A stretch of 61,012 nucleotides of DNA, counting the filler, from Collodictyon triciliatum (lineage: Eukaryota), in the NCBI GenBank assembly GCA_043381765.1. It is 3 parts of 3 records of this genome, joined end to end, with 100 filler letters (N's around TTAATTAATTAA, not from the genome) between each part and the next. Parts side by side here need not be neighbours in the genome. Positions count along the whole stretch, not along the records: positions 25,026 to 49,900 come from JBHJMP010001065.1; 2 more parts are not named here. The stretch is one strand, 5' to 3'. The notes beneath the pieces were generated by a model. The model did no database searches. It was given only the letters and a program-made list of their open reading frames with translations, and had not been told where the DNA came from. The first letter of the stretch is position 1. Each line of letters begins with the position of its first letter. Below are positions 3,705-50,494 of the stretch, one piece after another. Made by a program: the position numbers and the translations under genes.

Positions 3705-5144
3705 CTATGCGTTGGTATGGACCACGGACTGGGCAGCAGCCACATGCGTGGAGTTGTGTTTGGACATAGCGGGGTCATTGTGGGGCACGGGCTGGTTGTG
3801 GTTGTGGTTGTGACTGTCGATTTCCAGTTGGCTGAAGGCTTTGTTGCGAGTGTGGCTGTGGTTGTGGCTTTGTGGCTGGGTTGGGGTGCGGGGCTTCTGG
3901 GGGGCGTTGAGGGGACCCTTTGGCGTGGCGATGAAGGCGGCGTACTTGCTGACCGGCTGCGGGCCGCGGGGGGAGGCGACGCCCTGTGCGGCAGAGAGCG
4001 TGTGGTCGCTGTGCTGCCGCTGCGGCGTGCGGGGAGGCGGGGCGTGCATGTGCGCCGGGGTGGAGTGCGTCCGCTGCAGCGCCTGTGGCTGTGGCTGTGG
4101 CTGCGGTGCCTTCTTTGTGGCGGGGGTGGTAGGGGCGGGGCGTGTCTGCGGCTCGGCGCAGTCAGAGTTGGACGAGCTGGAGGAGGTGCGGGAGTCGTAG
4201 TGCAGGTTGGCGGGGTCTGTCGACCGCTGTGGCTGTGGCTGTGGCTGCTTGCGCGATTGTGGTTGCGGCTGTGGCTGTGGCTGTGGCGTGAAGGGGGCAG
4301 ACTGGGTGCGCACGGGGGTGAAGGGGGCGGCGCCGAGGCTGGGGTCGGCGGAGACTGTGCGGGCCAGCGGGGAGGCGACTGCGGGCGTGGGCGTGGGTGT
4401 GGCTGTGGCTGTGGCAGTGGCAGCGGCAGCGGAGGCGGCGAGGCGGCGGCGGTGTGCGGCGACGCGGTCGGAGTCCGGGCGGAAGTGGGCCCAGTACTTT
4501 GAGACGACGGCGCAGGCGCGCCAGGGCGGCATGGACATGTCTGCGCTGGTGAAGCTCTGGATGATCTGGGAGGTCAGCTCGGCAACCATGCGGTGGCACT
4601 CGGCCTGGGTGCCGAGGAAGATGGTGGGCAGGCGCTGCAGGTACTCGGCATACGCGGGGGTCGGGCGGGCAATCTCAAAGAAGCCCTTGTAGAACGGGTC
4701 GATCAGCACGGCTCCCTCGCCGTCCTCGGCCGCCCCGCCGCCCGCCTCCTCGGCCCCCGCCACGCTCACAAAGTGGTGCTCCACCGGGCGGCTGGGCCCC
4801 GGGGCGGTGCGCATCAGCGTTGCGGCGTAGCCCTTGGCCTGCAGCCACACGGTCAGCCCCACCAGGATGCTGAGCTCGCTGACGGGCCCGCTGCCACCCC
4901 CGCACAGCCCCCCCGGCGCAGACGACAGGGTGATGAAGAACTCCTTGACGCGGCTGAACAGCTGGCTGCGCACGTCCCGCCCCTCCCCTGCCCCTGCCCC
5001 TGCCGCCTGCCCCAGTGTGCGCGGCTGCAGCCCCGGCGTCAGCGGCAGCGTGTGCGTCGTCCCTGCTCCCGTCTGGGCCGTGCTCTGCGTCCGCACCAGC
5101 CGCTGTGCCTGCGGCGTGCTTGGCGGCCCCGTCTGCTGCCACAT
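3705..5144 (-). CDS. DUF506 (PDDEXK-like, plant-type) domain protein with a long Pro/Gln/Thr-rich low-complexity tail; single exon
   Basis: 479-aa ORF containing VLIDPFYKGFFEIARPTPAYAEYLQRLPTIFLGT...MSMPPWR, matching the DUF506 signature (D..F...FEIARPT..Y...LP..FVG...PPWR). Confidence 0.8.
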   Translation of the reverse strand: MWQQTGPPSTPQAQRLVRTQSTAQTGAGTTHTLPLTPGLQPRTLGQAAGAGAGEGRDVRSQLFSRVKEFFITLSSAPGGLCGGGSGPVSELSILVGLTVWLQAKGYAATLMRTAPGPSRPVEHHFVSVAGAEEAGGGAAEDGEGAVLIDPFYKGFFEIARPTPAYAEYLQRLPTIFLGTQAECHRMVAELTSQIIQSFTSADMSMPPWRACAVVSKYWAHFRPDSDRVAAHRRRLAASAAAATATATATPTPTPAVASPLARTVSADPSLGAAPFTPVRTQSAPFTPQPQPQPQPQSRKQPQPQPQRSTDPANLHYDSRTSSSSSNSDCAEPQTRPAPTTPATKKAPQPQPQPQALQRTHSTPAHMHAPPPRTPQRQHSDHTLSAAQGVASPRGPQPVSKYAAFIATPKGPLNAPQKPRTPTQPQSHNHSHTRNKAFSQLEIDSHNHNHNQPVPHNDPAMSKHNSTHVAAAQSVVHTNA

Positions 5145-8100
5145 CCCGGTCCTCTCTCTCTCTGCTCTTGGTGTGTCCGGTGTTGCTGCGGGCGTCTCCC
5201 TTCTCGGGTGCGTCTCTCTGCTCTTGTGGAAGGTGGAAGGGTGGAAGGGTGGAAGGTTGGAAAGTTGGAAGAGTGGAAGGGTTAAACGTTTGGAGCCTGT
5301 GCGCGGCGGTGGGTTAGTGGAAGGGGGATTATTGCTTGCTCTCTTGGGTCTGGGTCTTGTGGGTTTGGCTCATAATCTGCTGTTTCATTGACGGTTGGGG
5401 CGTGGTGGCAGGCGGAACCGGGACCAGTGTTTGTGGGGCGGTGGTTGCTGCTGTCGTTGTCTGTGTGGGAGAGAGTGCTTGGTTGTTAGGTGAGAGGCTG
5501 GAAATGGCCGCGTTGTTTGGTGCAGTGTCTGTGGAGGCGGTGTCTTTTGTATGGTATGTGTGTGTATATATGAGTAGTGCTGCACTGCAGACCAGCGAAA
5601 CAGGCACAGGCGAAAGGGAAGCCTTATTTTATATAGTGCTGGTCAGTTGCATTTGTGCGGATGGCCGCATTCCTCTTTCAATTCCTTCTTAAATAAGTGC
5701 TTTTCTTCCATCTTTCTTTGCGGGAATTTGCTCGAACATCGTGAATAACAGCAGTTCTAGCTCTATTTGGTTTGTATGTTTGTTATCGAGACCTCTCGGT
5801 AGTGGTGCCCAAGATCGGGTGGAGATGGGTGAAGGGCGAAGAGTCGGAGAGAGGGGACAGGAGTGGTGACAACGGTAAGAAAGCTCTGCCCTCTGGGTTG
5901 AGTAGTCTGCTTCCCGTGTTCATATGTTGAGATGCTTATGTTCTGGGAATAGGGCGAGGTAAGAGCCCCGCTTGCAAAGGCACTCGTTCTTGTTTAAAAA
6001 AAAAAAGGAGAGGGGAGAGGAATTCGTGCGCGTTGAGTCTGCCTCCTTTTGCTGGGTAAGAGCTGTCGAGGGTCTGGGGTTTCTCGAGAGGTTGGACGAC
6101 TGAGATTAATGTGCGGTCTTCCTTGTTGAAGCGAAAGGCTCTAAGACTTTGAAGAGACTGCCTCGATCGAAGGCGGAAGCGACGTGTCTTTTCTCTACCT
6201 GGAGCCCTTGCCAGGCTGGGAGGGAGAGTGGACAGCTTTCTTTCGCTTTGAACTCTCATGCTTTGATTATTTCTTTCCAACAAGTCACCCACATCGCGGA
6301 AGGCTACCGGGTGGCAAGCAAGGCAAAGCAGGCAGAAAACGAGACAACAAGCATTGCGCCAGCCATAAAATGACCACATGGCCAATATACATTCTCTCGT
6401 CTCTTTCATAGGTTGCTTGTGTTTGTCCGTCGGTTACGAAATAGACACTAGCTTTAGATTTTCCAGTAATATACACATTCCTTCGAAATTCAGCCCGCAA
6501 TGGGTTTTGGCTGCATTCAACATATGTTCGAGCGAATTCCCCACAAGATTCATGGCTGCCACGTATACACATGCAAGTTTGCAATATATTTATATTCCGC
6601 GGCTCCCAAGGTCTGTTCCTGAAAATTATAGGGTGTGATTGTCTCTGTCTATGCACCTGCATCCTGCCATCATTTGCCCTGCACCACGGGATTTACAATA
6701 TTCCCTGATTTTTAATAGGTTTGGTGCAAATGTATATTTTCTTTGAATCTCTAAACAGAATGTCTTTATTTGTTGATTTTTAATGAAAACTATTCGTTCA
6801 TTTCTCGGAAAGTCCTTTTCATTTATTCTCCATTTGTGGATTATATATAAAATATTAAAATATTTGTCAAATCGATGTATAATTATTAATATATTATGGA
6901 TATTTACTGTAATTATATATTAATAAGTTGATTGATATGAATCAGCAGAAATGCGCGTGTGAGGTTGCAAGCTTAGTTGCGCCCATACCGTAACACAATG
7001 CCGCTACATATGCCCTTTTAATCAATCTTATCCACATTTGGCACAATATTATATGCACCACTTTAATCGAAATTACACATAAATGGTATAATATTAAAAT
7101 ATCCACATTTGGTAAAGTATAGTGCTAATCGGGTTTGGGCTGTCTGCAACAAAGAAACAAAACAGAACAAAAAAGCAACTCGCGAAGCAAATGGAGGCCG
7201 GATGTTGAAGAATTTCCATTAATCGTCACAAGGTTTCCCTAAAACTATGCGGTGGTATGGTTCGGCGCGGTTGTGATAACATATTTTGTTTGGCAATGGC
7301 ATCGGCAAATTCTGATCGTGTACCGCAGCGCTGCTGTCTTTTGAACAAATCTCTTCGCTTTGTCTTTTTTTTTTTTTTTACTTTTTTTATTTTTTTATTT
7401 TTTATTTTGCTTCGTCTTCCTGCCCTCTATTTACCCGACCCTGTGAGAGGATACATGCGGAAAGAAGCCGAGAAAGAGACAAAACCTCGTCTTGCCTGTA
7501 TCATGCCAGCACAATACCCTGGATATAGAACAAAGCGCAGGGTGCAATACCGGACTACCGACTACTTCACCACCACCTGGCCGTCAAGTAGCGCCCATAC
7601 AAGCAAAGGCTAGCAGCCAAGGCCAAAACCTCCACTATTTTGCACAAATTAACAGGAAATTAAGGGATTATATTTCTACAACACACCAAACATGATGAAA
7701 TATGCACAGGAGAATGAGTCGCTTCTCAACAGAGCAAAGTCGTGTTTACAAATATGTTATGAATTCTGACATAAAAAGCCATACCTACTATCTTGTACAA
7801 ATTGAGAATAAAAAAAAAGAAGAGATACAAGTTTTCTTGCCAGATTTGCTCATATAGGGATACACAGTACCAAGATGCTGAGACCAGGGTGGCGTAAATA
7901 TAGCAGAGAGCGCAAATAATTTGTTGCTTTCTAATCAAGGCATTCAGCTTCTTACACTCCGCGGCATCATTTTTATTATTAGTACGGCATATCATAACAT
8001 CACACAAAGAAAAAAACAATATCAACTTTTGGTTGGCTAAAGGAGTCATTCTTGCCCCACGGAATCGGAGCTCATTGCACCAACAACTTGAATTGAGATA

Positions 8101-8176: not shown

Positions 8177-8688
8177 NNNNNNNNNNNNNNNNNNNNNNNN
8201 NNNNNNNNNNNNNNNNNNNNNNNNNNNNNNNNNNNNNNNNNNNNNNNNNNNNNNNNNNNNNNNNNNNNNNNNNNNNNNNNNNNNNNNNNNNNNNNNNNNN
8301 NNNNNNNNNNNNNNNNNNNNNNNNNNNNNNNNNNNNNNNNNNNNNNNNNNNNNNNNNNNNNNNNNNNNNNNNNNNNNNNNNNNNNNNNNNNNNNNNNNNN
8401 NNNNNNNNNNNNNNNNNNNNNNNNNNNNNNNNNNNNNNNNNNNNNNNNNNNNNNNNNNNNNNNNNNNNNNNNNNNNNNNNNNNNNNNNNNNNNNNNNNNN
8501 NNNNNNNNNNNNNNNNNNNNNNNNNNNNNNNNNNNNNNNNNNNNNNNNNNNNNNNNNNNNNNNNNNNNNNNNNNNNNNNNNNNNNNNNNNNNNNNNNNNN
8601 NNNNNNNNNNNNNNNNNNNNNNNNNNNNNNNNNNNNNNNNNNNNNNNNNNNNNNNNNNNNNNNNNNNNNNNNNNNNNNNNNNNNNNNN
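8177..8688. other. Assembly gap (512 N), probably hiding the 5' end of the thioredoxin reductase gene
   Basis: Run of N. Confidence 0.99.
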
Positions 8689-24925: not shown

Positions 24926-25025
24926 NNNNNNNNNNNNNNNNNNNNNNNNNNNNNNNNNNNNNNNNNNNNTTAATTAATTAANNNNNNNNNNNNNNNNNNN
25001 NNNNNNNNNNNNNNNNNNNNNNNNN
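24926..25025. other. Artificial contig linker: 44 N + TTAATTAATTAA + 44 N
   Basis: Palindromic six-frame stop 12-mer at 24970-24981 inside a 100-nt spacer; identical linker at 49901-50000. Confidence 0.95.
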
Positions 25026-29411: not shown

Positions 29412-30693
29412 AGTCGTGCCTTCCATTCGACCTTGCCCAAAATCTCCATCTCATTTAACGAGAAATATTCTAAGAACGAACATATTTGTACCGAGAACAA
29501 GATCATCATATCCATGATACCTCTAACAGGCCACCGAAGAGCGGACCTCTGTACAATCCAAGCCCTTCTCGAGCAAAGGAACCAGCACCCCAGAGTCCCC
29601 ACCCAAGAAGGCGCCAGCTCAGGTACCCGGCAGCAAAGCAACACAACCTCCGATGGCTGATGAAGAAGAAGCAGCAGTGAGAATCCAATCGGTTTACCGA
29701 GGGCACAATGTTCGCAAATCAAAGAAAAAGAAGCAACACAATGTCAGCTTCAACCCTGAAGACGAAGAAAAAGCCGCCACTCGCATTCAAAGCATGTATC
29801 GTGGCCATCGTGTTCGAAAGTCAATCTCAAGCGCGCCTGGTGAGGACGAGAATGCCAATGCCACACACTCTGATATTCAAAGAGCACCTGACACGCCCCG
29901 AAGCCCAGCTGTTGACGAGGCCGACGCAGCTTTGAAAATACAGTCTGTTTATCGAGGCCATCGTGTCCGTAAGTCTGTTTCCCACGGCTCAGGCGATGAA
30001 GCAGCCGCACACCGACCTACTTCAAAGGGCAAAAAGGCTCCATCCACTCCACCGATGCCGGCTATCGACGAGGCTGACGCAGCTGTTAAGATTCAAAGTA
30101 TGTATCGCGGTCATCGCGTCCGCAAGTCCAAAAACCATCCCGCACCTCAAGAGGAAGAAGAGCCCAGCCCTCAGCCACAGTTTTTGGCGCCTCCGAAAGG
30201 CGACTTCAATGAGGCTGATGCGGCTGTGAAAATACAAAGTGTATATCGCGGGCATCGCGTCCGTAGGACAATGCCACAGGGCTCTTTCAAGGCTGGCGTG
30301 TTGTTGCAAGGGCAAAGCCCCGAAGAAGCTGTTGCTCGGGCAATCGACCACTCCAACGCTTTGCAAGCAGGACGGGACGACGAGGACGACCAGGAGCTCA
30401 GCAAGGCAGCCGTCAAAATCCAGAGTCTGTATCGCGGCCACATTGTTCGCAAACAAATGGGAGGTATCCCAGAAGAGTCAGAGGACTTGGTTCCCAAGGA
30501 AGACGGTGAGGTCTTGGAGCAGACAGACAATACACCAGGGCTTGTAGTTGATGATGTGGACGACCCTGAGCAGGCTGAGCGCGCCGCTGTTCGGATTCAG
30601 GCTTCTTTCCGCGGCTACCAAGCTCGCAAGGAAGTCAAATCCATGCGTGGTGGACAGGACGAAGGAGGCAATGAGGAGCCTGCCGGTGAATGA
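28866..30693 (+). CDS. Protein with an N-terminal RIIa/Dpy-30-like docking domain and seven IQ calmodulin-binding motifs; exons 28866-28928, 29111-29251, 29530-30693
   Basis: YLNQHRILPLFQ/ELTALLVYVQPANPRQFLIDSLEK (D/D-domain pattern) splices in frame via GT-AG introns into an ORF with 7 x AAxxIQSxYRGHxVRK-type motifs. Confidence 0.8.
29315..29410. repeat. (ATT/ATC)n intronic microsatellite
   Basis: Direct reading. Confidence 0.9.
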
Positions 30694-38371: not shown

Positions 38372-38526
38372 TCTTTTTCTGCTTCGTCAGCACGAATCTG
38401 GCAGCGGAGTTTGCCGTGAGCAAGAAAGCGAAAGTGGGCTGGGGCCAGTGCAAACAGGACAAGGTTTTCGAGGGCGTGTGTATACTCGTACTTACGCAAT
38501 ACTGAGAAAATGGTTTGTGAAACGCA

Positions 38527-38612
38527 AAAAAAAGAAAAGAAAAGAAAAGAAAAGAAAAGAAAAGAAAAGAAAAGAAAAGAAAAGAAAAGAAAAGAAAAGA
38601 AAAGAAAAGAAA
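38527..38612. repeat. (AAAAG)n microsatellite
   Basis: Direct reading. Confidence 0.95.
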
Positions 38613-38789
38613 AGTCGAGCATTTGTTCATGTTGCCTGGTATAATTACGGATACGAATATATGTATTTTTCATGTTGAGATTTTGGTTTGAAATTGATAC
38701 TCTATTAATAATGAGATGAGCTCGTCTGTAACATTTATTTATTTATTTATTTATTCGATTCAGGTGTCAGTACACCGCACAAGGAGACT

Positions 38790-41700
38790 TCAAGGCTTTG
38801 GCTGCGTAAAAAGACGGGAAAGAATGTGGTTTGTCTTGGTCGGGTCTGCTCGCTGGTTGCTCAGGCGCATTACTTCTGACATAAACACACCCAACAGCTT
38901 CTTTTCTCCTTTAAGGAAGCGCTCCGTCTTTGTTTGCATTTATAAATTAAAAACAAAATAAAATATTGTGCCTCTAAAAAAAAAAAACATTTTCTAACCA
39001 CCAAGAGCGTAAAAGAAAAAGAAAAAGAAAAAGAAAAAGAAAAAGAAAAAGAAAAAGAAAAAGAAAAAGAAAAAGAAAAAGAAAAAGAAAAAGAAAATAA
39101 AAGAGAGATAAATTAGTTGTATGAGATTACTTCGTTTGGATTGGCATCGAAAGCCTGCTGACAGAATTTCTCCAGCGCAATATCATCACTGATAATGGTG
39201 AGTCCTTGTTCCTTTGTAGATAAACAGTGTTACTTGTTGACTCATATATCATATACTGATTCCAGTTCAGAAAGGAATAGCTCTTGGGTTGCTCGAACAT
39301 AGGCAGATGTAATTCAGATGCAAATAAGTTTATATTAATTTATATGAGAAAGCCGCACTGTGGCAATTTGTTCTGGATTTTTGTGTGGCTCTTCAAAAAG
39401 GTGCTCGATTATTTTTTTGGCCATATGGTCTATTGGAAAAAAAAAGTACACGGGTAATCATCAGAGTCATGGCAACATTCAAACTGCATCCTCGCTGGCG
39501 AGAGTCTGACTCTTTTGGGGTTGATTATATCAAATATTGTCTCTTTATGTTGCTTTTGCAATTTTCTCATATATAACTGGATAACTGTCCGACTGAGCCT
39601 AAATAATCATAAAATATATTCAAAACTTACTTGATATCGCTCCAGATTCAATCATAAGTACTACATTCCTTATGTAATCAGCGGGGATGGGTGACTCTTT
39701 AAGTGACTTATTGTCTTTCCTCAAGTACTTGAATATTTCTGTGGTGATTCTATTGGTACCAGTAAATTATTATTTTTAAAAAATAAATAAATAAATTGTA
39801 TGATATAACTTAACACGATGAGGACTTAGGCATTTTCATTAATTAACTGATTTGTGTAACTCACAAGTTCGAAACTATTTTAGGGCTGCATCCAACACTC
39901 GCCTTTGTATTTAGTGGGTTGGCTTCTTATTATTCATCATAGATTTTGTGTAATAAAGGAACATAATGAAAGTGATTTGATCGAATAGAAAAATGCATAT
40001 TGATGATAATGACCTGCTCGAAAAATTCTACGCCCCCATCTTCGTGAAGTAATACATTCGCATCGTAAGGCAGTAATCCGTACTTATTCAACAGTCGTTC
40101 TCGAACAGCGTCTGGTAACTCTGGTAAGTTATTTTTGATTTCGTCGATGGCACTCTGTGTGTAAGTAGAGTGAATCATATTCATTCGATATCATAAAACA
40201 TTGTGTAAAAATCGATATAGTTTTACTCGGATGATAATATCAAACCAACTATATCATTAATTGTTGAATTATTTATTTTTTTTACTTCAATTACCTGCTT
40301 AATTTGTAGGGGCGGAAGGTCAGGTTCTGGGAAAAATCTATATCCAATTTTTTTTTTCATACGAATCTCATGCTAATATTCAAGAATTTGATCTAAAGCA
40401 AACTGCAATAAAAAAATATTCTTCGATAACAAAAGTTGTATGAGTAGTTATCGATAAACAAGTATGTATGCCGATTATCAGAAAAACCAAGGAAGGGAAA
40501 AAATACAAACCGGTAATCTGCCTCTGATTCTTTGTCACGCATCGGTAAGGTTATACCAGCAACATTATCAAACGTTAGCGTTTCCATTTTCACACTCTCG
40601 CCCGATTCAATCAACTTAATGTGCCTCTGAACCTCAAAGTCTTGGGAGTATTTCCCCCATCATTTACCATCAGTTATGAAATGCAACAAATAGAGCTTTT
40701 GTAAGTAAATGAATCCTTTGTCAAAATTAAGTTTCTTTTTAAAAAGAAAACTAAAAGAGTACCAAATCAATAGTATTTGAATACTTCTATAAGTAAAGAA
40801 ATGATGAGAAGGTATATAGCGTACCAATGGCCTTCATCAACGACTTAATACTATTCAGGTTTTTTATTTCTGTCCTGACACCGAAAGCATCCCCTGGTTT
40901 CCGAACAGAAACATTTACATCACACCGCAGCGAGCCCTGCACGATTTCATATACGAGTCAGATACATAACATAGCAAGGCCCATTTAATTTTGTGATAAA
41001 AGATGTGGTAATTTTTGAAGCTACATACATGCTTCAACAATAGTGCATTTGAACTTACATCCTCCATATTGGCTGGGCATGTTTGGATGTGTTTCAACAA
41101 AAATTGAACTTTTCGAACATATTCCCCAGCTTCGGCACTTGATCTGATTTATGTTTAATGTTAACATGGAGATGTTCTCTTTTCTTTTCGTTCTTGGTTA
41201 AGGGACTAAAAATACATGCAAACCACAGTTCAATATAAACATGTACAGATAAATAAATAGTATTATTAGAAAAATAACACTATATACATAAATAGTACCT
41301 CATATCAGCATCGCTTACTATTTCCATCAAAGACATTCCTGCTCGATTCAGATCGACCAAACTAAGAGATGGATGTTGATCATGTATGCTTTTTCCACTG
41401 TCCTATAGGATATTTTTTAAATACATATATAGGGAATTACATAAATGAGCAATATGTGCTAAGTATATTGGTTCAGTTGGTCTCCATTTGTGTGTAAATA
41501 GCTAAATGAAGATGATGTAAGAGAAAATAGGAACCATTTCAAGCTTCAATGCTTGCACTCGCACTTTTCTAGTATACTGGTTAGGCTTATCCATGTGTAG
41601 CTCTACGAATCCATTAGAAACAAGTGGGGCTGCATATGGGGGGAAATTGCATACGAATTAAATAGAAGAAAAAATGACTATTGTCAAAGTGGCTGGTCTA

Positions 41701-42767
41701 TGATGCCGAGAAAATAGACATAATCGTACCAAACTGTTGCGTGATTTGGTATCCATGAGGGAGGTCGAGGTAGAAATAGTGTTTTCTGTCAAACGTCGAG
41801 AAGTGGTTTATTTGTGCATTTAGAGCCAATCCTGTTTTTATGGCTTGTTTGATACAGTAAGCGTTGATGACCTTTAGCGTGCAGAGAGAAAAATGTAGCA
41901 AAGGGTTTAAATCAATGTGAACTAATCGGAAGGGAAAAAAGAGACGCATTTATTTGATGGTGACTGGTTAAGAGAAAATGTAAAATCCTAATATAAATAT
42001 TTTTGGAGGAAAATTTTAGTTTTTGAGATGTAGGAGTGTTAAAGATGATTGATACAAATTCCTCGATGGTAAAGGAGCATACACTAAGCAGTCGAGAGAG
42101 AGAGAGAGAGAGAGAGAAAACAACAACGAAACAGTAAAATGATTTCTAAAATGGCCTAATTTTATTACCGGCAAGGTACCAGGAAGAGCAGCATCGAAGA
42201 ACGAAACTTGTGTGTTCGGAGGAGATGCGAAAGTTGTTGACGAACCTGTTAGAAAAACAATCTTAATTTTTTGTCTAAAAATATATTCGTTCTACATGAT
42301 ATAATAAAATTACCTGCACAGAATTTTGATATTGGATTATGGCGTAAAAAAAAAAAAACTTGTAAGCTTCATAAGAACGTAAAAGCTTTATAAACCATAT
42401 TTTTATCTGTTTAATCATTTCTTCATTTATTAATTTATTCTTTGGTTCATTCATTCATTAATCTATTTTCTACAAAGTAATCATGCGACCAATTTTCTTA
42501 TTTTGAATTAAGTAGAGGGAAAATAACAAATAATTTACTCATCAAATAAGAAGAAAGACACATCATACCGGAAAAAAGCTTCGTCTGCGACAAAACTTGA
42601 GCATGAAGCTCCAAGCCAACAACAACTTCCCATTTCTGCTTCGTCTTTGGTGACTGAACCAGAAGATTAGGGGAGTTATGAACCTTTCCTATTCCCTCTG
42701 CGCTTCTGGAGGTAAACTTCCTTCCAAAGGCGCCAGAAAGCATCGTTCGAGAACCAGACCAAAGCAT
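38790..42767 (-). CDS. GATB: Mitochondrial Glu-tRNA(Gln) amidotransferase subunit B (PET112), multi-exon
   Basis: [71 protein letters not shown], YqeY-like tail ...[10 protein letters not shown]...-TGA at 38790. Confidence 0.95.
39011..39096. repeat. (GAAAAA)n intronic microsatellite
   Basis: Direct reading. Confidence 0.95.
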
Positions 42768-42830
42768 CTTCTTGAAGGCCTCGGCCTATTTCGAGAGAAT
42801 TCACAGTCATTTCCCAGCGGACGTCGCTCA

Positions 42831-42831
<1 letters not shown>

Positions 42832-42892
<61 letters not shown>
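42832..42892. repeat. (AAAG)n microsatellite upstream of the GatB start
   Basis: Direct reading. Confidence 0.95.
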
Positions 42893-42894
<2 letters not shown>

Positions 42895-43289
42895 GACAAG
42901 AGTGCTTCATGTGCAGTTCATCGCTGCTTGGCAAAATTAGATTATTTCTGCCTTTTGGATCTACGCCAAATAAAGGAAGATCGTATATAAGTGGAACATA
43001 TACTATATTGAATATATTGATCGTACAATATTTGATTATTGATATTTTAATACATATTTGGATATAAGTTATCAAATTTCTACACAAGAATAATTAAAGA
43101 GATTAACGCCGTCGAGAAGTGATGCAAACCATTATGCCATTCCATTCCTTCATCATTCCCTGCCATTTCGCATGCTGAACAACTTCGTTACGAAGTAAGA
43201 AAAAAACGTCAAAAAAAAAAGAAAAGAGAATCAACAAAATCAACCAGAATCAATATTTTCAAACAAGGTTCGTGCGCTGACTCTTTCGA

Positions 43290-43770
43290 GCAGGAAGGCA
43301 GTGGTTGGGGTAGAGAGTCGGACAAGAACAAGACAAACAAAGGCCCCCACCCCAGTGTCGGGGAGCGATGATCCCATAAAGTAGTTGGCACTCGCTCTTT
43401 TCCTTCGAATTCTTGTTTATTTTTTTCTTTACGAGTATTGACTTCGCACAACGCGGCTCCACTGGCAAATAAAACTCTTCGCAAGTGCCTTTTAACATTC
43501 GCAAAAATCTCTTTTCTGGTAGGATCGAAAGCATAAAGGCCAAAGATCAAAACACGAAACTGTGTAGACAATGTCCCAGAAAGACATAACCTTCGCTGCC
43601 CACTTTTCCTTTCCACGTTTCCAGTTTATCCCCGCCCTCTCTGGCCACCCGTTTTTGTTTATATTTTTATTCAACACTCCTTTTTGGAATGCTTGATCTT
43701 GTTCGGCAAACATACTTCATCATTCAGACACAGCTCCTCTAATATACAAAAACCCAAAAGAATATAATAG
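43290..43770 (-). mobile_element. Decayed L1/Tx1-like LINE ORF2 fragment (region after the RT domain)
   Basis: Frameshifted peptides YILLGF (YLG-like), WPERAGINWKRGKEKWAAKVMSFWDIVYTVSCFDL (W...LS..GR...K......Y.....L-like) and IIAPRHWGGGLCL (P...GGLG-like), in the expected order. Confidence 0.35.
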
Positions 43771-44057
43771 AAAACTGGATCAATGTGAATCAATATACCT
43801 TTTTTCTTTCTTTTCCATACCGAGTCAACAAAAGAACTTATCAACATAATTCACCTCTCTTCAGTACGTTATATATATATAAAGACGCAAACTCTCACAT
43901 CCACTCACAAAATAATAAAGATCAAGTATTAGGGTGATTGGTTCTGTTTCATTCACCAATACATATTTACTTTACTTCGCTTACTACGACTTTGGAGCCA
44001 ATTAATGAAGCCTTCATTTTACCCTCCATGTTAGAACCCTGAAACAACGGAAGCACG

Positions 44058-46175
44058 ATGGGCGACATCACCGAAGAGGAAAAACTCCGCATTGCCAACC
44101 AATTCATCCTCAACGCTCCACCCGGCGAGTTCAACGAAGTCGTGACTGGTTTGTGCCCACGTTATTCTCTCCCCAACAATCCACAAGACAAACTCATATA
44201 TATATATATATTATAAGCTTAACATCAAGTAATAATCAACCGTCCCTTCTGATTTCCAAACAGATGTCCGCAAAATCCTCAACGACGACGCCCTTTTGAA
44301 TCGCACTGCACTCCAAACCTTCCGTCAACACAACACCGAAAACTTTGCCACTGCGGCTGCTGCGGACATTCCTCACAAAGTAACTATGAAAGTGCCTCTT
44401 TGGACCCACTCTCGGTTTTTTTGCCCGACTGTTCTTCCCTTCATTTCTGCTCTTCCGGTTCTCTTCCTAACAAGCCCCTCTTTTTTTTTTTTTTAAAAAA
44501 AAACAAAACAAAACAAAACAAAAACAAAATACTTACGTATATCTGAAAAGGAAATTAATAGCATATATCCATCTTATTATCTATTATTTTAAATTCAAAG
44601 AAAAACAGTACTCTTTCGTGTTGGCTTATATGATTCGCTATCTTCCTGCATAATTTGTTGTATAAATCATAGGTGATCGTCACAGCCTTCAACGAGGTTG
44701 ACACAAAGCACTACAAAGACTACCGCGCTGGAGTCGTGTTCAAATTCGACCATGTCAAACAGGTTTCACTTCACAGCATGAACCTTTCGCATACTCTTTT
44801 TTGTTTTTTTAAAAAAAAAAGCAATGGCTAAATCAAGAAAATAATAGCATTCGGTCAAGATACAAACTTAATTACTATGAATAGGAAGTTGTCGAAACAC
44901 GCCCCATCGAAGAGAGCGAGCTTGTTCCTGAGGCCGAAGCTTTCCGGTATGTAGCATGCGAATTCTCCTTTCGATTTCAAACTTTTTGCTGGCAGATTTT
45001 TATACTCATTCAAAGGCTAGATAGAAGAAATCAAGTTCGTTCGTTCATTCATTTACGTTCTGACTTACAGCGCCGCCATCGATGCTTCACTGTCAAAGTA
45101 TGTTTACAACTACTACCCTGATGGGACTCTCGGTGTTTTCCCTGTCCGTGTTGATGATGAAATCGAAATGCACATTTGCATTTCTGCTGTTCGCTTGAAC
45201 CCAACAAACTTTTGGTACTTTTTTTTTTTGAAATAACAAATCTGAGCTTGTCTATTTTCCTACATTTATTTGTCATCGTAGATACGAAATCGTGTTAAGG
45301 AATAATTCAAACTTTGATTCGATTGCTTTTCTCAGCTCAAATATTTCTCTCCTATTAGTTGGTTCCTGATGAGTTTATTGTTCATGTTATTATTATTAAC
45401 CCATTCATTAATTTGACCAAGGAATGGACAATATCGTTCCTATTATAACTTCAAGTATCGCCCTGGAGTGGCCACCGCCAAAATGAATGGCCTTATCAAG
45501 GTATCCTTGGTTTATTTCAACCTATGTGGTGCTAAGACACTCCATTGCATGGGAGTCTTGTTGACACTTTTTTGTTTATAAAGTATGACTTGATGGTTAA
45601 GCGTTTTATTTTTATTCTCTGCAGTCACTCGTCCATTACTACGAAGACGGAAACGTCCAGCTGAACACAAAGACTGAGCGTAACGCAGATATCAAAGTGT
45701 CGGTAAGTGACGCCCTCTGTAAAGTGATGAAAGCGAGATATATACTCTAACAAATTAACTTTAACTCATCGTCCAGCTCAGTTGCTTTGCCCTATCTTCA
45801 TAAATGCCTGTCTTCATATCTAACATAAAATATTATTTTTTTATATGTCTATTAAAGGACTCTGGCGCCGCTGACGCCATCACCAAGCAAATTCAGGAGT
45901 GGGAATCAGGCTTCCAAACCGGGCTTGATGCCAGCACCCAAAACCTTCTGGAACTTTCGTTCAAGGTTCTTCATTCACCCCATATTAAATTGTCTGATCA
46001 ACAAATTTACGCTGTTGTCAAAGTCTTGCATTGGAAATATCTTTTCAATTCTGGGTTTAATGAAATACAATCATCCTTGCAGGGACTCCGCCGCAAACTG
46101 CCCATCAGCGGTACGAAGTTCAACTTCAACCAAATCGGCCAACACAAGGTCATTGGAGAACTCAACTCCAAGTAA
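44058..46175 (+). CDS. CAPZA: F-actin capping protein subunit alpha, multi-exon
   Basis: MGDITEEEKLRIANQFILNAPPGEFNEVV, FKFDHVK, NFWNGQYRS, VHYYEDGNVQL, GLRRKLPISGTKF. Confidence 0.97.
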
Positions 46176-47332
46176 AATAATAAAGTACATGCAGCCAGCA
46201 ACGCGGATATGCGATGACGAATGAAAGGGTATTAAAAGACGGACGTACAAGGAGACAGACAAATATGATGAAGTGCTATCAAATGTCAACTGGTTGCTCT
46301 GAATAAAACCACAGCCCCTGTGGATTGTGCTATTATTCTTCCCTCACATACAGTACAGATAGATTTTGCCCAGCACGAAGCCTAGTGCCATCTGCATATG
46401 TTGCATCCATAATCGCCGACGATGGTCACATCCCTCCTGAACAAATATGTAACCAGGAAACTGCGCAACCTCTCCCGATTACGGGCGAGATTGTTGACCT
46501 ATGCTTGTACTGACTCTTTTCGCTAGTGACGCACTCGCTGGAGCGTGTAGTACTCTTGTATTCTTATCTTTACGTTTTTTTTTTTAATTTGTTTTATTTT
46601 GATAGATGATTATTTTAATTTTTTCCCTTTATTCGATTCAAAGTGCAGCGAGGTTATGCCATACAAAGGGGCGGGATGGAGCGCATGGGAGAGAGCAAAC
46701 GCGAGTAGAGAATACAATACCGTGGAGAGACTGGGACTGGAAAGAAGTCAGAGATAGCGAGTTGGTCAGGTGGGCGACCCAACTGGTTGATTGGCTGCGT
46801 GGGTAGCAGGGGTTGGATATGATGTGGGAGATATAGCACGACACATTCCCACATCTCTCTTCGCTTGCGGTCAGAGTAGCAAAGAATGCGAGCGTGTTTC
46901 AGCAGGCTGTTCAGGAAGCTGTATTGCACGAGGCTTTCCAGCCTGGATACATTGATTTCTCACTCGGATGAATCATTAGAGCGAGAGAATGCACGCACAC
47001 TCCATAGGGACCACAGCATATGTCCCCTCGTGACTGTCCAGAGTATTCTAGAGTCAACCTGAATAATATAATAGTATAATTAGTATATACTAAGGTTAAA
47101 AATACTTAATAATCTCATTCTATTCATATTATTAATTTATATTTTATTTTTATATATGTAATATATCATTAAAATTCAAAAATGACAAACAGGCCCTTGT
47201 GTTGGCCCAGACAGAACCCACCCTATAAACTTGCCACCAAACATGCATTTCAAAAAAAGCATACTATCCACACTTGCGGCGGTAATCATGTTGTTTGGGG
47301 CCGATATGTTGACTTTCAGTCGCAATGGCTTT

Positions 47333-49709
47333 ACAGCCGTCCTTTCAAACTCGCCGAATCAGCTCTCAGCGTTTTGTCTCAAATCACTTATAAAAAACTT
47401 TGTGTGTTTGTTTGCCACAAAGCGCATATTTTGAGATTCTTGGTAGATGCTTAATTTTACCTAAATTGATTTTATGAATTTTTTTTTAAACTGGCTAATT
47501 GACTAAAGTTTTTTTAAAATTGAAAACTCGGTATTTTCCTAAAGGAAAAAGTAAAACAAAGACTTTCAGATGAAGAAAAGAAAACGTCTTCAGTCTGGAA
47601 ATATAAAGTCTGTAGAACCAGACAATTGAAATGTGAAAACATCTCTAAAGTCGATTGTAAAGAATGCGAATGACTATTATAAAATCAACGATACGGTTTT
47701 ATTGTGTCATAATTTGGTTACCTACACTTATCTGTTTGCAAGATGTTACATGTTGAAATCATGACAACTCCCAACAATCGATGAAATGTTTTTTTTTCGT
47801 ACGCTTTGAAAACAGTCAGAGTAGTTTCACAAGATAGACTCGCAAGTTTTTTTTTTTAAAAAAATACTAGAGATAAGTAAAGACATGATGACTTTTTATC
47901 TCAATGTTTTTCGATACCTTTTGTCCCGAGAAGGACGCTTTCCGTTGGTTGGATTGTCTCATGTATTACCGTGCTTGGCGAAGCAAATGTTAACAGCTTA
48001 TCATAATAAGATTAAGGAACATTTTGCAAAGAGGTTACTGCGCTTTATAAATCAAACAGTTCCCAAATATGAGAATATGACGGAAGCTGTTAAAAAGGCA
48101 GAGCTAAGAAAGTTAAAAAAGAAGCCATCTTCAAGAAACTCGAAATACCGGAGCAATATAAAGAATGGGCTGCAATACATTTGCATCATATCATTCCCAG
48201 CGATATTGTAAAAGATATCGAATATGACGCCAAAGTCAATCCAAATAAGTACATTCCATGTCTGATTTACATGAATCGCATTTTTGAGGACATTAGAGCC
48301 AAACTGTTTCAACCAATCTCTACAAGAACTAACAATATACCATGTCATGTTACTATAGATACTGCATATTTGGTAGATATTAGTATCAAGTGGAAAAACA
48401 TAATTACTGAAGAATATATCCGGATGCAAAGAGACACTATGGGATGACTTCTTTGAAATGAAGAAGAGAGTCTTTCATCAAAGAAATTACAGTTTTAAAT
48501 ACATGATACAAACAGACGGTAGGTGGTGTCATTATTATTTGAAAAGAAAGGTATTTCATGTTCAAAATCTAAATAAATCAAAAAAAAACCAAGGATATGT
48601 TTATTTAGATTAACTTTCCGAAGAGCAGTTATCTTTATTAGCGACAAAAAATAGTTGGAGTGGACGCAGGCAAGTTTAATTTGGTTTACATGGCGGATGA
48701 GGCAGGTAAGAAATTACTTTACACGGCACACCAAACAAGACATGATAGCAAATCTCCTAAAAATCACAAAATACTCTTGTGCAAGAAAAAAAGAAAAGTA
48801 CACCTATTCAGGGATATGCATGACAACAGATTTACAAAGTGTTGTTTCTTTTGGTCACATGACTTTTGAAGAGAATCAGCGGTTTGGGACATCAAGAGTA
48901 TCTTTAATCGATTTAGAGACAGAACTGGGTAAACATAATTCATCCACGGCCGATTATGAAAAATATAGAAAATAGGTATCTATGGAATCAAGATACCATA
49001 TAGAGTTATCCAGATTTTAGAACAAGTAACTTTTCGAAAGATGAGATGGAGACAGTATGTTAATACAAAAAGAAGAGAACAATTGTTTATGGTCCGAATC
49101 GAAAAGACATTTGGCAAGGATGTTGTACTGGCGAATGGAGACTGGAGCAGAAAATCTCCAATGAAACATTTTAAGCCAGCAATCGGAAGAGGATTACGAA
49201 AAATACTACCCAAACGTTGAAACATTTATTGTAAATGAATTTAGAACCTCCAAGATGTGTTGTAACTGCGAAAAAGAACTGGATTATATGATACTGAAAG
49301 GAAATACGAAAAAAAGTGTATAGATGTCTCATGTGTAAATAATGCAATCGCTCAGAAAGCAAACAAGATGTATTCTTGACAAAGGACTTTAACAGCGCTA
49401 ATAATATACTCAAGAAAGCTCTTTTAATCCTTCGAAAAATGCCTACACCTTCCTAAAAAAATAGGCTGTCGGGTCTTTCCTGGCGGACTTCACCACTACA
49501 CAATCTTTGTGAAAAAAGTGATGAGACCTTGGATACTAGTGCGCTAAGTTTACCAATCTTTCGATTGATATACCCTTTCTAGTAAAGTAAATAAATCATA
49601 AACTATATATGTTAATTACAAGTTTTAGATTTAGGCTTTCTGATATCTATGAACCACGTTTCCCTTAAGAGCCGTGCTAGCGCCAGCTTTGAAATTTTAG
49701 AACGGGTGT
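47333..49709 (+). mobile_element. Putative non-autonomous Fanzor-carrying DNA element with degenerate terminal inverted repeats
   Basis: Left ACAGCCGTCCTTTCAAACTCGCCG (47333-47356) resembles the reverse complement of the right end, ACACCCGTTCTAAAATTTCAAAGCTGGCG (49681-49709); encloses the Fanzor pseudogene; no transposase seen. Confidence 0.45.
47570..49456 (+). pseudogene. Fanzor1 (eukaryotic TnpB-like RuvC RNA-guided endonuclease) pseudogene, full length with stops and frameshifts
   Basis: Collinear motifs MKKRKR..VKTSLKSIV..INDTV; IPCHVTIDT; MIQTDG (48512); RuvC-I KIVGVDAGKFNL (D at 48663); FRKMRW; GDWS (49137); RuvC-II VNEFRTSKMCCNC (49231); CLMCK*C zinc finger; RuvC-III TKDFNSANNI; stop at 49454. 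Confidence 0.88.
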
Positions 49710-49710
49710 G
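49441..49710 (+). ncRNA. Candidate Fanzor omegaRNA scaffold
   Basis: Nested complementary segments immediately 3' of the Fanzor ORF (GGTCT/AGACC, CACT/AGTG, CACAA/TTGTG, TACTAG/CTAGTA, CAATC/GATTG), in the position expected for an omegaRNA. Confidence 0.4.
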
Positions 49711-49834
49711 GCGGTGTGGTTGTGGAGTTGGAATGATACGTTACTGAGGTGACACAAATAATGATTTGCATGCAGGCTATCTCCATGAAAAATGGTACAC
49801 TCGCAACTTCGCCTATTCTACTGCACAGGAATCA

Positions 49835-49900
<66 letters not shown>

Positions 49901-50000
49901 NNNNNNNNNNNNNNNNNNNNNNNNNNNNNNNNNNNNNNNNNNNNTTAATTAATTAANNNNNNNNNNNNNNNNNNNNNNNNNNNNNNNNNNNNNNNNNNNN
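49901..50000. other. Artificial contig linker: 44 N + TTAATTAATTAA + 44 N
   Basis: 12-mer at 49945-49956; flanked by poly(A) 49836-49900 and (TTTTTTG)n 50001-50085. Confidence 0.95.
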
Positions 50001-50494
50001 TTTTTTTGTTTTTTTGTTTTTTTGTTTTTTTGTTTTTTTGTTTTTTTGTTTTTTTGTTTTTTTGTTTTTTTTGTTTTTTGTTTTTGAGGTAAAGCACCGC
50101 ACATTATACAATTCTGGAAAATATAATACTATACAATTATGTATATAATTATGCCCTATAAGTCATATTCATAATCGTATTTATTATATTGATGTAAATT
50201 AAAATTGCTGTATAGAATATATCCTGCAAGTAACATTTCCATGGAAAGAGGGACAACTTTGACCGAACAGCAAACCACCCCAATCACAACCAATCACAAC
50301 CGCCTGCAAATCGCAGCATCCTAGGATCAAAGTGAGTTGCACAATCCGCGAAAGTCTGTGTATTAGTGAATTCGCACGCACCTTGTCAAAAACAGAGAAG
50401 GAGGGTCAAACTAAGGACAGTATTATCTACACTTTTTTCCAAAATGTATTGATGCGCTTTAACCTTCGCACCAAAGAAGCAAAGCGCAAGTGAA

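What the first reader, a model, noticed from the sequence alone, without database searches (positions are those of the whole stretch)
47570..49456. Full-length decayed Fanzor1 (eukaryotic RNA-guided TnpB-like nuclease) hidden across broken frames
Seen: stitching + strand frames gives a ~600-aa intronless protein, fragmented in the ORF track. It starts with NLS-like MKKRKR and carries, in order, VKTSLKSIV..IND, IP.HVTIDT, TDG, VGVDAGK, GDWS, VNEFRTSK-CCxC...CxxC(decayed) and KDFNSANNI. Known: a RuvC-I D, a GDWS block, the catalytic E placed just before the zinc finger (DE.TS..C) and an RD.N...NI RuvC-III characterise Fanzor1 proteins of eukaryotic transposons and giant viruses. All three catalytic acids are still present (D48663, E49237, D in KDFN), but true in-frame stops (47627, 47762, 48973, 49340) and homopolymer frameshifts show this copy is dead. 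Inference: this protist lineage hosts or hosted a Fanzor family, and intact sibling copies could provide an undescribed programmable nuclease.
Basis: partly seen in the sequence, partly recalled or inferred. Interest (0 to 1): 0.9.

Follow-up and report, generated by a model that had tools for sequence, protein, structure and literature searches.

The report
Dead copy of a Fanzor1 nuclease gene
This stretch is a broken, non-functional copy of a Fanzor1 gene, a known kind of RNA-guided DNA-cutting enzyme carried by mobile DNA in eukaryotes; the dead copy itself is ordinary, but it points to a many-copy, uncharacterised branch of the family that has at least one intact member in public data.

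Summary
Window 47570-49529 (+) is collinear with all 648 residues of an intact public protein, P0002. In that alignment 386 of 638 aligned codons are identical, with 12 frameshifts, 8 in-frame stops and no introns.

P0002 matches the three solved Fanzor1 proteins by sequence, with E-values from 2e-28 to 4e-23. Its AlphaFold model (pLDDT 88.7) has all top seven PDB hits in Fanzor1, with TM up to 0.80. The next hit is a Cas12 at TM 0.25.

Four more stops exist. Only 5 of the 12 frameshifts lie next to homopolymers, so "homopolymer frameshifts" is only partly right.

The copy has also lost 7 of 28 family-conserved residues, including the Pro of DPG and the Arg of RD.

Short contigs from four public runs show many diverged sibling copies. 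Some of them lack this copy's frameshifts.

Fanzor1 has been known since 2013 and was shown to be an RNA-guided nuclease in 2023. This is a new member of a known kind, of modest interest.

The parts
47570..49529 (+). Fanzor1 pseudogene, collinear with residues 1-648 of the intact sibling P0002. 386 of 638 aligned codons are identical, with 12 frameshifts and 8 in-frame stops.
47570..47587 (+). N-terminal basic stretch MKKRKR, also the first six residues of P0002. It lies in a low-confidence, probably disordered tip of the model. Its role as a nuclear localisation signal is inferred, not tested.
   Evidence: PMC10530073 passages on N-terminal NLS in Fanzors
48512..48520 (+). TDG block. T312 is invariant and D313/G314 nearly invariant in the family alignment.
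48663..48671 (+). RuvC-I motif. The catalytic Asp is kept at 48663, but the motif reads DAG where the family has an invariant DPG (Pro lost at 48666).
   Evidence: PMC10711439 passages
49137..49148 (+). GDWS block at the canonical RuvC-II position. Gly (G521 of P0002) is invariant, in keeping with replacement of the canonical Glu. The positional equivalence is inferred.
   Evidence: PMC10530073 passages
49237..49239 (+). Alternative catalytic Glu (E555 of P0002, invariant), six residues before the first CxxC.
   Evidence: PMC10711439 passages
49258..49345 (+). Zinc-finger (TNB) region. All 6 Cys codons of P0002 are kept (49258, 49261, 49267, 49325, 49334, 49343), but the stretch is cut by a frameshift near 49306 and a TAA at 49340. 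A fragment gave a weak Pfam hit to Cas12f1-like_TNB (E 0.013).
49382..49408 (+). RuvC-III motif KDFNSANNI. Asp is kept at 49385 and the Asn residues at 49391 and 49403, but the family's nearly invariant Arg is now Lys (49382).
47300..47569 (+). Upstream non-coding part that is also matched by sibling contigs in public runs, so the repeated unit starts at or before 47300. The left end was not found.
   Evidence: tables 2, 8: X2 records 9 and 10 span 47304-47659 and 47358-47654
49530..49594 (+). 3' flank still matched by sibling contigs. Contigs of X1 (2) and X3 (1) run on with letters the aligner no longer matched after 49558. This is a tentative right-end zone and the place where a guide RNA (omega RNA) end would be expected. 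No RNA evidence was obtained.
   Evidence: tables 2, 7, 8

Best explanation
Window 47570-49529 (+) is a full-length but dead copy (pseudogene) of a Fanzor1 gene.

Fanzor1 proteins are the eukaryotic, transposon-borne relatives of bacterial TnpB. They are single-chain RNA-guided DNA endonucleases with REC/WED lobes, a split RuvC domain and a zinc-finger TNB domain. A guide RNA (omega RNA) transcribed from the 3' end of the element directs them.

The ancestor of this copy was an intronless ORF of about 650 aa. It had an N-terminal basic tip, a RuvC-I DPG motif, the rearranged alternative Glu just before the zinc finger, and an RD motif in RuvC-III.

After insertion the copy drifted without selection. 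It now carries 8 in-frame stops and 12 frameshifts, and it has lost several family-invariant residues, so it cannot make the enzyme.

It belongs to a many-copy, diverged repeat family. Other members, at least one of them intact (P0002), occur in public data, including freshwater and lake metagenome runs.

Shown here: homology, family membership of the sibling, the breaks, and the presence of many sibling sequences. Inferred: RNA-guided nuclease activity of intact siblings, the NLS role of MKKRKR, neutral decay, and the type of carrier transposon (unknown).
For: Closest relative.
- a search with the 83-aa fragment 48969-49220 found 3 proteins among 18 candidates, including the intact 648-aa P0002 (67% identity over the fragment).
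- tblastn of P0002 against the window gave linked segments at E 7.6e-111, covering 47570-49480.
- a frameshift-aware alignment covers all 648 residues. 386 of 638 codons are identical and 12 frameshifts are needed.
- there are 8 stops of all three kinds on the alignment path.

Family of the sibling.
- P0002 against PDB sequences gave 7 hits at E <= 10. The 3 significant ones are all Fanzor1 (2.1e-28, 2.7e-24, 3.7e-23); the other 4 are at E >= 0.38.
- the AF2 model of P0002 has pLDDT 88.7 and pTM 0.87. The top seven Foldseek PDB hits are all Fanzor1 (E from 5.8e-28 to 4.2e-23, TM up to 0.75/0.80). The eighth hit is Cas12o at E 7e-7 and TM 0.25.
- 3147 representative clusters match P0002 at E <= 1e-3, and 537 at E <= 1e-30.

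Conserved residues.
- in a 66-sequence family alignment the invariant columns include D364 and P365 (DPG), G521 (GDWS) and E555 (alternative Glu). R603 and D604 are nearly invariant. The window keeps 21 of these 28 positions, including all three catalytic acids and 6 of 6 Cys, and has lost 7.
- window fragments give weak Pfam hits to OrfB_IS605 (E 0.048) and Cas12f1-like_TNB (E 0.013), in the right order.

Sibling copies.
- 179, 401, 13 and 14 short contigs from four runs lie on the stretch at 80-99% likeness. Up to 24 distinct contigs cover one place.
- In the same call, some sibling contigs carry small indels at or near places where the window copy is frameshifted: 48519, 48786, 49019, 49217 and 49308.

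Literature passages read: PMC10530073, PMC10711439, PMC3627910, PMC11423790 and PMC10432273. They state the defining features.
Against: - No reads of the window's own assembly could be found. One search listed no holder with more than 0.08 of the sampled words. The breaks are therefore not checked against raw data, and 5 of the 12 frameshifts lie next to homopolymers of 6 or more, where assemblies can err.
- Fanzor1 membership was tested by structure and by PDB sequence search on the sibling P0002, not on the broken copy itself. On its own the copy reaches only sub-threshold Pfam scores.
- No guide RNA, terminal repeats, target-site duplication or transposase were found. The mobile-element context is therefore inferred from multi-copy presence alone.
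- The host organism was not identified, and its genome is not held.
Confidence: 0.93

Rival explanations
1. The gene is intact, or far less broken, in the living organism, and the breaks are assembly or sequencing errors such as homopolymer miscalls in long reads.
For: - 5 of the 12 frameshifts lie within 15 nt of a homopolymer of 6-11 bases.
- The window is a join of contigs with artificial linkers and gaps, so it is a draft-grade assembly.
- No source reads were available.
- Sibling contigs lack some of these frameshifts.
Against: - 7 of the 12 frameshifts are not at homopolymers, and 8 stops arise by base substitution, which homopolymer errors do not make.
- Family-invariant residues are also substituted: the Pro of DPG, the Arg of RD and 5 more of the 28.
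- Other long ORFs in the same window are open, for example the 401-aa Pyr_redox_2 ORF and the 388-aa IQ ORF.
- In 29 of the 40 best-supported places listed (the tool's pick from 677), every covering X2 contig disagrees with the window. That is what a privately drifting copy would show.
Confidence: 0.04
2. The gene is functional and is read with a non-standard genetic code and/or programmed frameshifting.
For: Some protists reassign stop codons, and in-frame TGA, TAA and TAG are all seen here.
Against: - All three stop codons occur in frame, and 12 shifts of both +1 and +2 type are needed.
- The sibling P0002 is one open frame under the standard stops.
- Neighbouring ORFs of 388-401 aa are open under the standard code.
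Confidence: 0.01
3. It is not a eukaryotic Fanzor1. Instead it is a prokaryotic TnpB, a Fanzor2, or a giant-virus insertion or contaminant.
For: - TnpB, Fanzor2 and Cas12 share the RuvC/zinc-finger core, and the weak Pfam hits are to the shared domains.
- Fanzors also occur in large DNA viruses (PMC3627910 abstract).
Against: - Fanzor2 and TnpB structures score far worse than Fanzor1: TM about 0.2-0.3 against 0.65-0.80, and E 6.6e-5 to 1e-3 against about 1e-23 to 1e-28.
- The scan of viral contigs found no relative.
- The flanks hold eukaryote-type genes, including an IQ-motif protein and split aminotransferase and oxidoreductase ORFs.
- At 648 aa the sibling fits Fanzor1 rather than the 350-470 aa TnpB and Fanzor2 chains listed.
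Confidence: 0.02

Closest known systems
Spizellomyces punctatus Fanzor1 (SpuFz1; PDB 8gkh, 9ceu-9cez)
   Same: - Best structural match of the sibling P0002: TM 0.75/0.80 over 644 alignment columns, E 7.6e-27.
- Sequence match at E 3.7e-23.
- Similar size and the same order of domains: REC/WED, RuvC-I, helical insert, RuvC-II with the alternative Glu, zinc finger, and RuvC-III with Asp.
   Different: - Only about 20% identical.
- The SpuFz1 element has 33-bp terminal inverted repeats and TA duplications (PMC3627910 passage). None were found here.
- The window copy is broken.
Guillardia theta Fanzor1 (GtFz1; PDB 9cer-9cet)
   Same: - Best sequence match of P0002 among solved structures: E 2.1e-28, with DPGK and E..TS..C..C aligned.
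- The GtFz1 locus also lacks inverted repeats and a transposase (PMC10432273 passage), as does this locus.
   Different: - GtFz1 has Asn at the third catalytic position (N658; PMC11423790 passage). P0002 and the window copy keep the canonical Asp (D604 / 49385).
- About 21% identity.
Bacterial TnpB (ISDra2; PDB 8h1j) and Fanzor2 (mimivirus; PDB 9b0l)
   Same: The RuvC plus zinc-finger nuclease core and RNA-guided DNA cleavage. Fanzor2 and some TnpBs also use the rearranged alternative Glu (PMC10530073 and PMC10711439 passages).
   Different: - Much smaller chains, 362 and 466 residues.
- Fold matches to P0002 are only partial: TM 0.19-0.31, E 6.6e-5 and 1e-3.
- They are borne by IS200/IS605/IS607-type elements.

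Membership tests
Fanzor1 | Significant sequence similarity to experimentally characterised Fanzor1 proteins over most of the length | tested here: met
   The sibling P0002 matches GtFz1, PpFz1 and SpuFz1 at E 2.1e-28, 2.7e-24 and 3.7e-23, with two or three matched stretches each that together reach from about residue 4 to residue 575 of the query. The window copy is collinear with P0002 over residues 1-648.
Fanzor1 | Fanzor1 fold (REC/WED + split RuvC + TNB), closer to Fanzor1 than to Fanzor2, TnpB or Cas12 | tested here: met
   Tested on the sibling only. The model has pLDDT 88.7. The top seven PDB hits are all Fanzor1 with TM 0.65-0.80. The next hit is at TM 0.25.
Fanzor1 | RuvC-I catalytic Asp within a DPG motif (near exclusive in Fanzors; PMC10711439) | tested here: inconclusive
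   D364 and P365 are invariant in 66 of 66 family sequences, P0002 included. The window copy keeps the Asp (48663) but reads DAG, so the Pro is lost. This is taken as decay of a member.
Fanzor1 | Canonical RuvC-II Glu replaced, with an alternative Glu six residues upstream of the first CxxC (PMC10530073, PMC10711439) | tested here: met
   E555 is invariant and followed by FRTSKL-CCNC. The window keeps E at 49237 and the same spacing. G521 is invariant in the GDWS block. That G521 sits at the canonical Glu position is inferred.
Fanzor / TnpB | Bao & Jurka motif D-X(125,275)-[TS]-[TS]-X-X-[C4 zinc finger]-X(5,50)-RD (PMC3627910) | tested here: met
   P0002 reads D364, then 193 residues, then T558 S559 K L C562..C565...C584..C587, then 15 residues, then R603 D604. 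The window copy keeps D, TS, all the Cys and the final D, but has K in place of R (49382).
Fanzor1 | Guide (omega) RNA encoded at the 3' end of the element | tested here: inconclusive
   The single-sequence fold of 49380-49600 is no better than shuffles (z -0.67). There is no Rfam match. No sibling DNA with flanks could be fetched for covariation, and no RNA run was listed.
Fanzor1 | RNA-guided double-strand DNA cleavage | not testable with these tools
   This needs biochemistry on an intact sibling. This copy cannot encode the protein.
Fanzor1 | Residence in a eukaryotic (or eukaryotic-virus) genome, usually inside a transposable element and in several copies | tested here: inconclusive
   The flanks look eukaryotic, with an IQ-motif ORF and split ORFs of housekeeping enzymes. 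Many diverged sibling contigs occur in four runs. No transposase, TIR or TSD was found, and the host genome is not held.
Functional gene (any family) | Uninterrupted reading frame | tested here: not met
   8 in-frame stops and 12 frameshifts lie along the homology path.

The most novel reading that the evidence does not exclude
The dead copy marks a Fanzor1 branch that has not been characterised. It is only about 20% identical to the three solved Fanzor1s. It is compact (about 650 aa), intronless, has a canonical D-E-D triad, and seems to lack terminal repeats or a transposase partner. It is present in many copies in a freshwater eukaryote, and some copies (P0002-like) may still be active RNA-guided nucleases with their own guide RNA and target-adjacent motif.
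Probability: 0.4. Interest if true: 0.45.

Novelty: new member of a known kind. Interest (0 to 1): 0.3.

Why it matters
Fanzor1 enzymes are the only known RNA-guided DNA nucleases native to eukaryotes, and they are being developed as compact genome editors.

A dead copy has no use in itself. It does show that this unnamed eukaryote was colonised by a Fanzor1 element, and it led to an intact 648-aa sibling and a large, diverse set of relatives (3147 representative clusters).

If intact copies from this branch are active, they would add one more ortholog with possibly different guide RNA and target-motif needs. That would be an incremental gain rather than a new principle.

As a check on the first-stage reader, this is a clean case. 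It read a gene correctly through 20 breaks from raw sequence.

Tried and rejected
- Own genome: none is held, so copy number and intact copies in the host could not be sought.
- Sequencing runs: no holder had more than 0.08 of the sampled words, so the source reads were not found and the frameshifts could not be checked on raw reads. No RNA holder was listed.
- Read laying: no contig covered 49595-49830. A part without cover proves nothing, so I do not use it as a boundary. In the same call, 'go-back' joints from 49442/49448 to 47847 in X1 and X2 were left unexplained. They could reflect tandem or 5'-truncated copies, or chance joins at A/T runs.
- Metagenome scan with P0002: 184 stretches matched a pattern, but only 1 encodes a relative (L001, 21% identity). 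This is too distant to define element ends.
- Viral contig scan: 36 pattern matches, none a relative.
- Second homologue search with 48094-48447, longer proteins: 80 candidates, none significant. Even P0002 was missed, so this is a limit of the word filter and not evidence.
- Terminal inverted or direct repeats between 44000-47600 and 49480-49660: best score 23 against a shuffle mean of 23.3 and maximum of 29, so none.
- The repeat finder: only A/T-rich low-complexity pairs.
- Self-blastn of 44000-49835 against the window: no second copy.
- RNA fold of the 3' end: z -0.67.
- Rfam: only a chance-level miRNA hit at E 0.97.
- tRNA scan: none.
- Pfam on upstream ORFs: not run. The list of ORFs of 90 aa or more in 38500-47500 shows mostly low-complexity frames and no long ORF, and no family scan was made to look for a transposase.
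- PF26935, precomputed for P0002, is not in the local Pfam copy, so I cannot say what it is.
- Alternative genetic code and assembly-error readings were considered and rejected; see the rival explanations.
- Supplementary tables of the Fanzor catalogues (PMC10432273, PMC10530073) are closed, so I could not check whether P0002 or its host is already listed there.
- Complex prediction, the protein atlas and a family tree were not used. The fetched proteins carry no taxon labels, so a tree would not have named a host.
Full report
**What is in the sequence**

The + strand between 47570 and about 49530 holds a chain of short open frames that switch phase repeatedly.
- MKKRKR at 47570
- NVKTSLKSIV..KIND
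- IPCHVTIDT
- TDG
- VGVDAGK
- GDWS
- VNEFRTSKMCCNC...CLMC
- KDFNSANNI

Scanned alone against Pfam, the fragments give only weak hits. These fall on the right families in the right order: OrfB_IS605 at E 0.048 on the VGVDAGK fragment, and Cas12f1-like_TNB at E 0.013 on the VNEFRTSK-CCNC fragment.

**An intact sibling**

A protein search with the 83-aa fragment 48969-49220, restricted to longer proteins, returned 3 hits among 18 candidates. One of them, P0002, is an uninterrupted 648-aa protein from a 2610-bp public contig. It begins MKKRKR...NVKTSLKSII...KINDTVLLCHNLVT and carries every motif.

- tblastn of P0002 on the window gives linked segments at E 7.6e-111 across 47570-49480, and only noise elsewhere.
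- My frameshift-aware alignment of P0002 to the DNA covers all 648 residues, from 47570 to 49529. Of 638 aligned codons, 386 are identical (60.5%). It needs 12 frameshifts, 10 deleted and 10 inserted codons, and no long DNA-only gap. The copy is therefore intronless relative to P0002.
- Eight stop codons lie on that path: 47627 TGA, 47762 TGA, 47857 TAA, 48401 TAA, 48611 TAA, 48973 TAG, 49340 TAA and 49454 TAA.
- Of the 12 frameshifts, 5 lie within 15 nt of a homopolymer of 6 or more and 7 do not.

**What family it is**

By sequence, phmmer of P0002 against all PDB chain sequences gives seven hits at E <= 10. The three significant ones are all Fanzor1: Guillardia theta (2.1e-28), Parasitella parasitica (2.7e-24) and Spizellomyces punctatus (3.7e-23). 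The rest are at E 0.38 or worse. The printed alignments pair VGVDPGK with the GCDPGK of GtFz1, and VNEFRTSKLCCNC with VPEHYTSQECPSC.

A full HMMER scan of 1.84 billion representatives found 3147 clusters at E <= 1e-3, 1703 at <= 1e-10 and 537 at <= 1e-30. Most are 580-760 aa long.

I aligned P0002 with 65 full-length representatives, picked by length from the 150 listed.
- Invariant columns: T312, D364, P365, Y481, G521, E555, S559.
- Nearly invariant columns include D313, G314, T558, R603, D604, N606 and N610.

By fold, AlphaFold2 on that alignment gave a confident model (pLDDT 88.7, pTM 0.87). In Foldseek against the PDB the top seven hits are all Fanzor1, with E from 5.8e-28 to 4.2e-23. TM is 0.75/0.80 to SpuFz1 8gkh. 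The eighth hit, Cas12o, is at E 7e-7 and TM 0.25. Fanzor2 (9b0l) and ISDra2 TnpB (8h1j) are at TM 0.19-0.31.

**Comparison with the published definitions**

For each paper I saw passages found with the 'find' mode, not whole texts or supplements.
- Bao and Jurka 2013 (PMC3627910) define the shared motif D-X(125,275)-[TS]-[TS]-X-X-[C4 zinc finger]-X(5,50)-RD. P0002 fits it: D364, 193 residues, T558 S559, two residues, the Cys cluster 562-587, 15 residues, then R603 D604.
- Jiang et al. 2023 (PMC10530073) report that Fanzors replace the canonical RuvC-II Glu by Pro or Gly and use an alternative Glu about 45 residues away. They also report that about 60% of Fanzors have a predicted NLS.
- Yoon et al. 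2023 (PMC10711439) state that Fanzors have DPG almost exclusively at RuvC-I, and that the alternative Glu sits six residues before the first CxxC. P0002 has both.
- Xu et al. 2024 (PMC11423790) note that GtFz1 has Asn at the third catalytic position. This family keeps Asp.
- Saito et al. 2023 (PMC10432273) note that the GtFz1 locus lacks inverted repeats and an associated transposase.

**State of the window copy**

Mapped through the alignment, the window keeps 21 of the 28 invariant or nearly invariant positions. The kept positions include:
- RuvC-I Asp at 48663
- the alternative Glu at 49237
- RuvC-III Asp at 49385
- all six Cys codons

The lost positions are:
- the Pro of DPG, now DAG (48666)
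- Y481, which sits at a frameshift
- N145K, R388T, E391D and S500R
- the Arg of RD, now KD (49382)

With 8 stops, 12 frameshifts and about 40% of codons changed against the nearest intact relative, this is an old pseudogene.

**Siblings in public runs**

No run holds the stretch as such. The best share of sampled words is 0.08, and no source reads or RNA holder were listed.

I laid Logan contigs of four runs at 80% likeness or more. Runs X1 and X4 are labelled freshwater metagenome and X3 lake water metagenome. X2 is 'organism A', whose kind (RNA or DNA) is only guessed. The numbers of short contigs placed were 179, 401, 13 and 14.
- Likeness ranged from under 90% to 99% and above. In X2 the split was 34 at 99+, 105 at 95-99, 142 at 90-95 and 120 under 90.
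- Up to 24 distinct contigs covered a single place (48153 in X2).
- The longest pieces are only 150-420 nt, so the presence of the same organism is not shown. What is shown is a multi-copy, diverged family.
- In 29 of the 40 best-supported difference rows (the tool's pick from 677), every covering X2 contig disagrees with the window.
- Some sibling contigs carry small indels at or near places where the window copy is out of frame relative to P0002. These are 48519, 48786, 49019 (3 of 3 X1 contigs and 7 X2 contigs), 49217 and 49308.
- These breaks are thus private to this copy or to its assembly.
- Contigs also match 47300-47569, upstream of the ORF. Some run on with letters the aligner no longer matched after 49558. 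The repeated unit therefore starts at or before 47300 and ends not far beyond the ORF.

**Context**

The window is a join of contigs. Artificial N44-TTAATTAATTAA-N44 linkers sit at 24926-25025 and 49901-50000, and there is a 512-N gap at 8177-8688. The pseudogene lies about 370 bp from the end of its piece, so most downstream context is missing.

The flanks look eukaryotic. They hold an IQ-motif ORF and split ORFs of an aminotransferase and a pyridine-nucleotide oxidoreductase.

I found none of the following:
- a long ORF in the 9 kb upstream that could be a transposase (judged from the ORF list alone; no family scan was run)
- terminal inverted or direct repeats
- a second copy in the window
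- an Rfam match
- a fold signal in the 3' end (z -0.67)

**How it most likely worked**

Intact members of this family would act like characterised Fanzor1s. The N-terminal basic tip takes the protein to the nucleus. An omega RNA transcribed from the 3' end of the element binds the REC/WED/RuvC surface and pairs with DNA next to a short target-adjacent motif. The D364-E555-D604 site then cuts. This is inference from family membership and nothing of it was tested here. The window copy can do none of this.

**Verdict**

- Fanzor1 was described in 2013 and shown to be an RNA-guided nuclease in 2023. Three structures are solved and thousands of loci are catalogued.
- This is a new member of a known kind. 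Its modest interest lies mainly in the intact sibling and the size of the branch it belongs to.
- Whether P0002 or its host already appears in the published catalogues could not be checked, because the supplements were closed.

Noticed in passing
window 24926-25025 and 49901-50000: Artificial linkers of the form N44-TTAATTAATTAA-N44 (a stop in all six frames) join separate contigs. Sequences on either side are not necessarily neighbours in the genome. The Fanzor pseudogene sits at the end of the piece 25026-49900.
   Followed up: partly
window 49836-49900 and 50001-50076: A run of 65 A abuts the linker, about 300 bp downstream of the pseudogene. The next piece opens with a (T7G)n-like repeat. 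Both are low-complexity contig ends. No sibling contig was laid on 49595-49830, so whether the A run belongs to the element is open.
   Followed up: no
window 8177-8688: A 512-base run of N (assembly gap) that creates spurious long 'ORFs' in all frames.
   Followed up: no
window 3708-5369 (-): A 554-aa open frame in a GC-rich island (63.6% GC in 4001-6000, against 31-50% in the other 2-kb bins of the window) carries a PDDEXK_6 nuclease-like domain (E 2.2e-17).
   Followed up: no
window 29527-30690 (+): A 388-aa open frame with seven IQ calmodulin-binding motifs (Pfam IQ, E 1.4e-44).
   Followed up: no
window about 38500-38650 and 42850-42950: Purine-rich microsatellites that translate as (KEKKR)n and (KERK)n in long spurious frames.
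   Followed up: no
window 49442/49448 joined back to 47847 (tables 5c): One contig in each of X1 and X2 joins the 3' end of the ORF back to the T11 run near the 5' end, with 8 or 15 other letters between. This could mean tandem or 5'-truncated sibling copies, or chance joins at A/T runs.
   Followed up: no
L001 2382-4100 (+): A metagenome contig of 5342 bp holds an intact 572-aa ORF distantly related to P0002 (21% identity, E 2e-9), beside a 205-aa ORF on the other strand.
   Followed up: no
P0002: The collection lists a precomputed Pfam family PF26935.1 for P0002. It is absent from the local Pfam copy, so its name and meaning could not be checked.
   Followed up: partly
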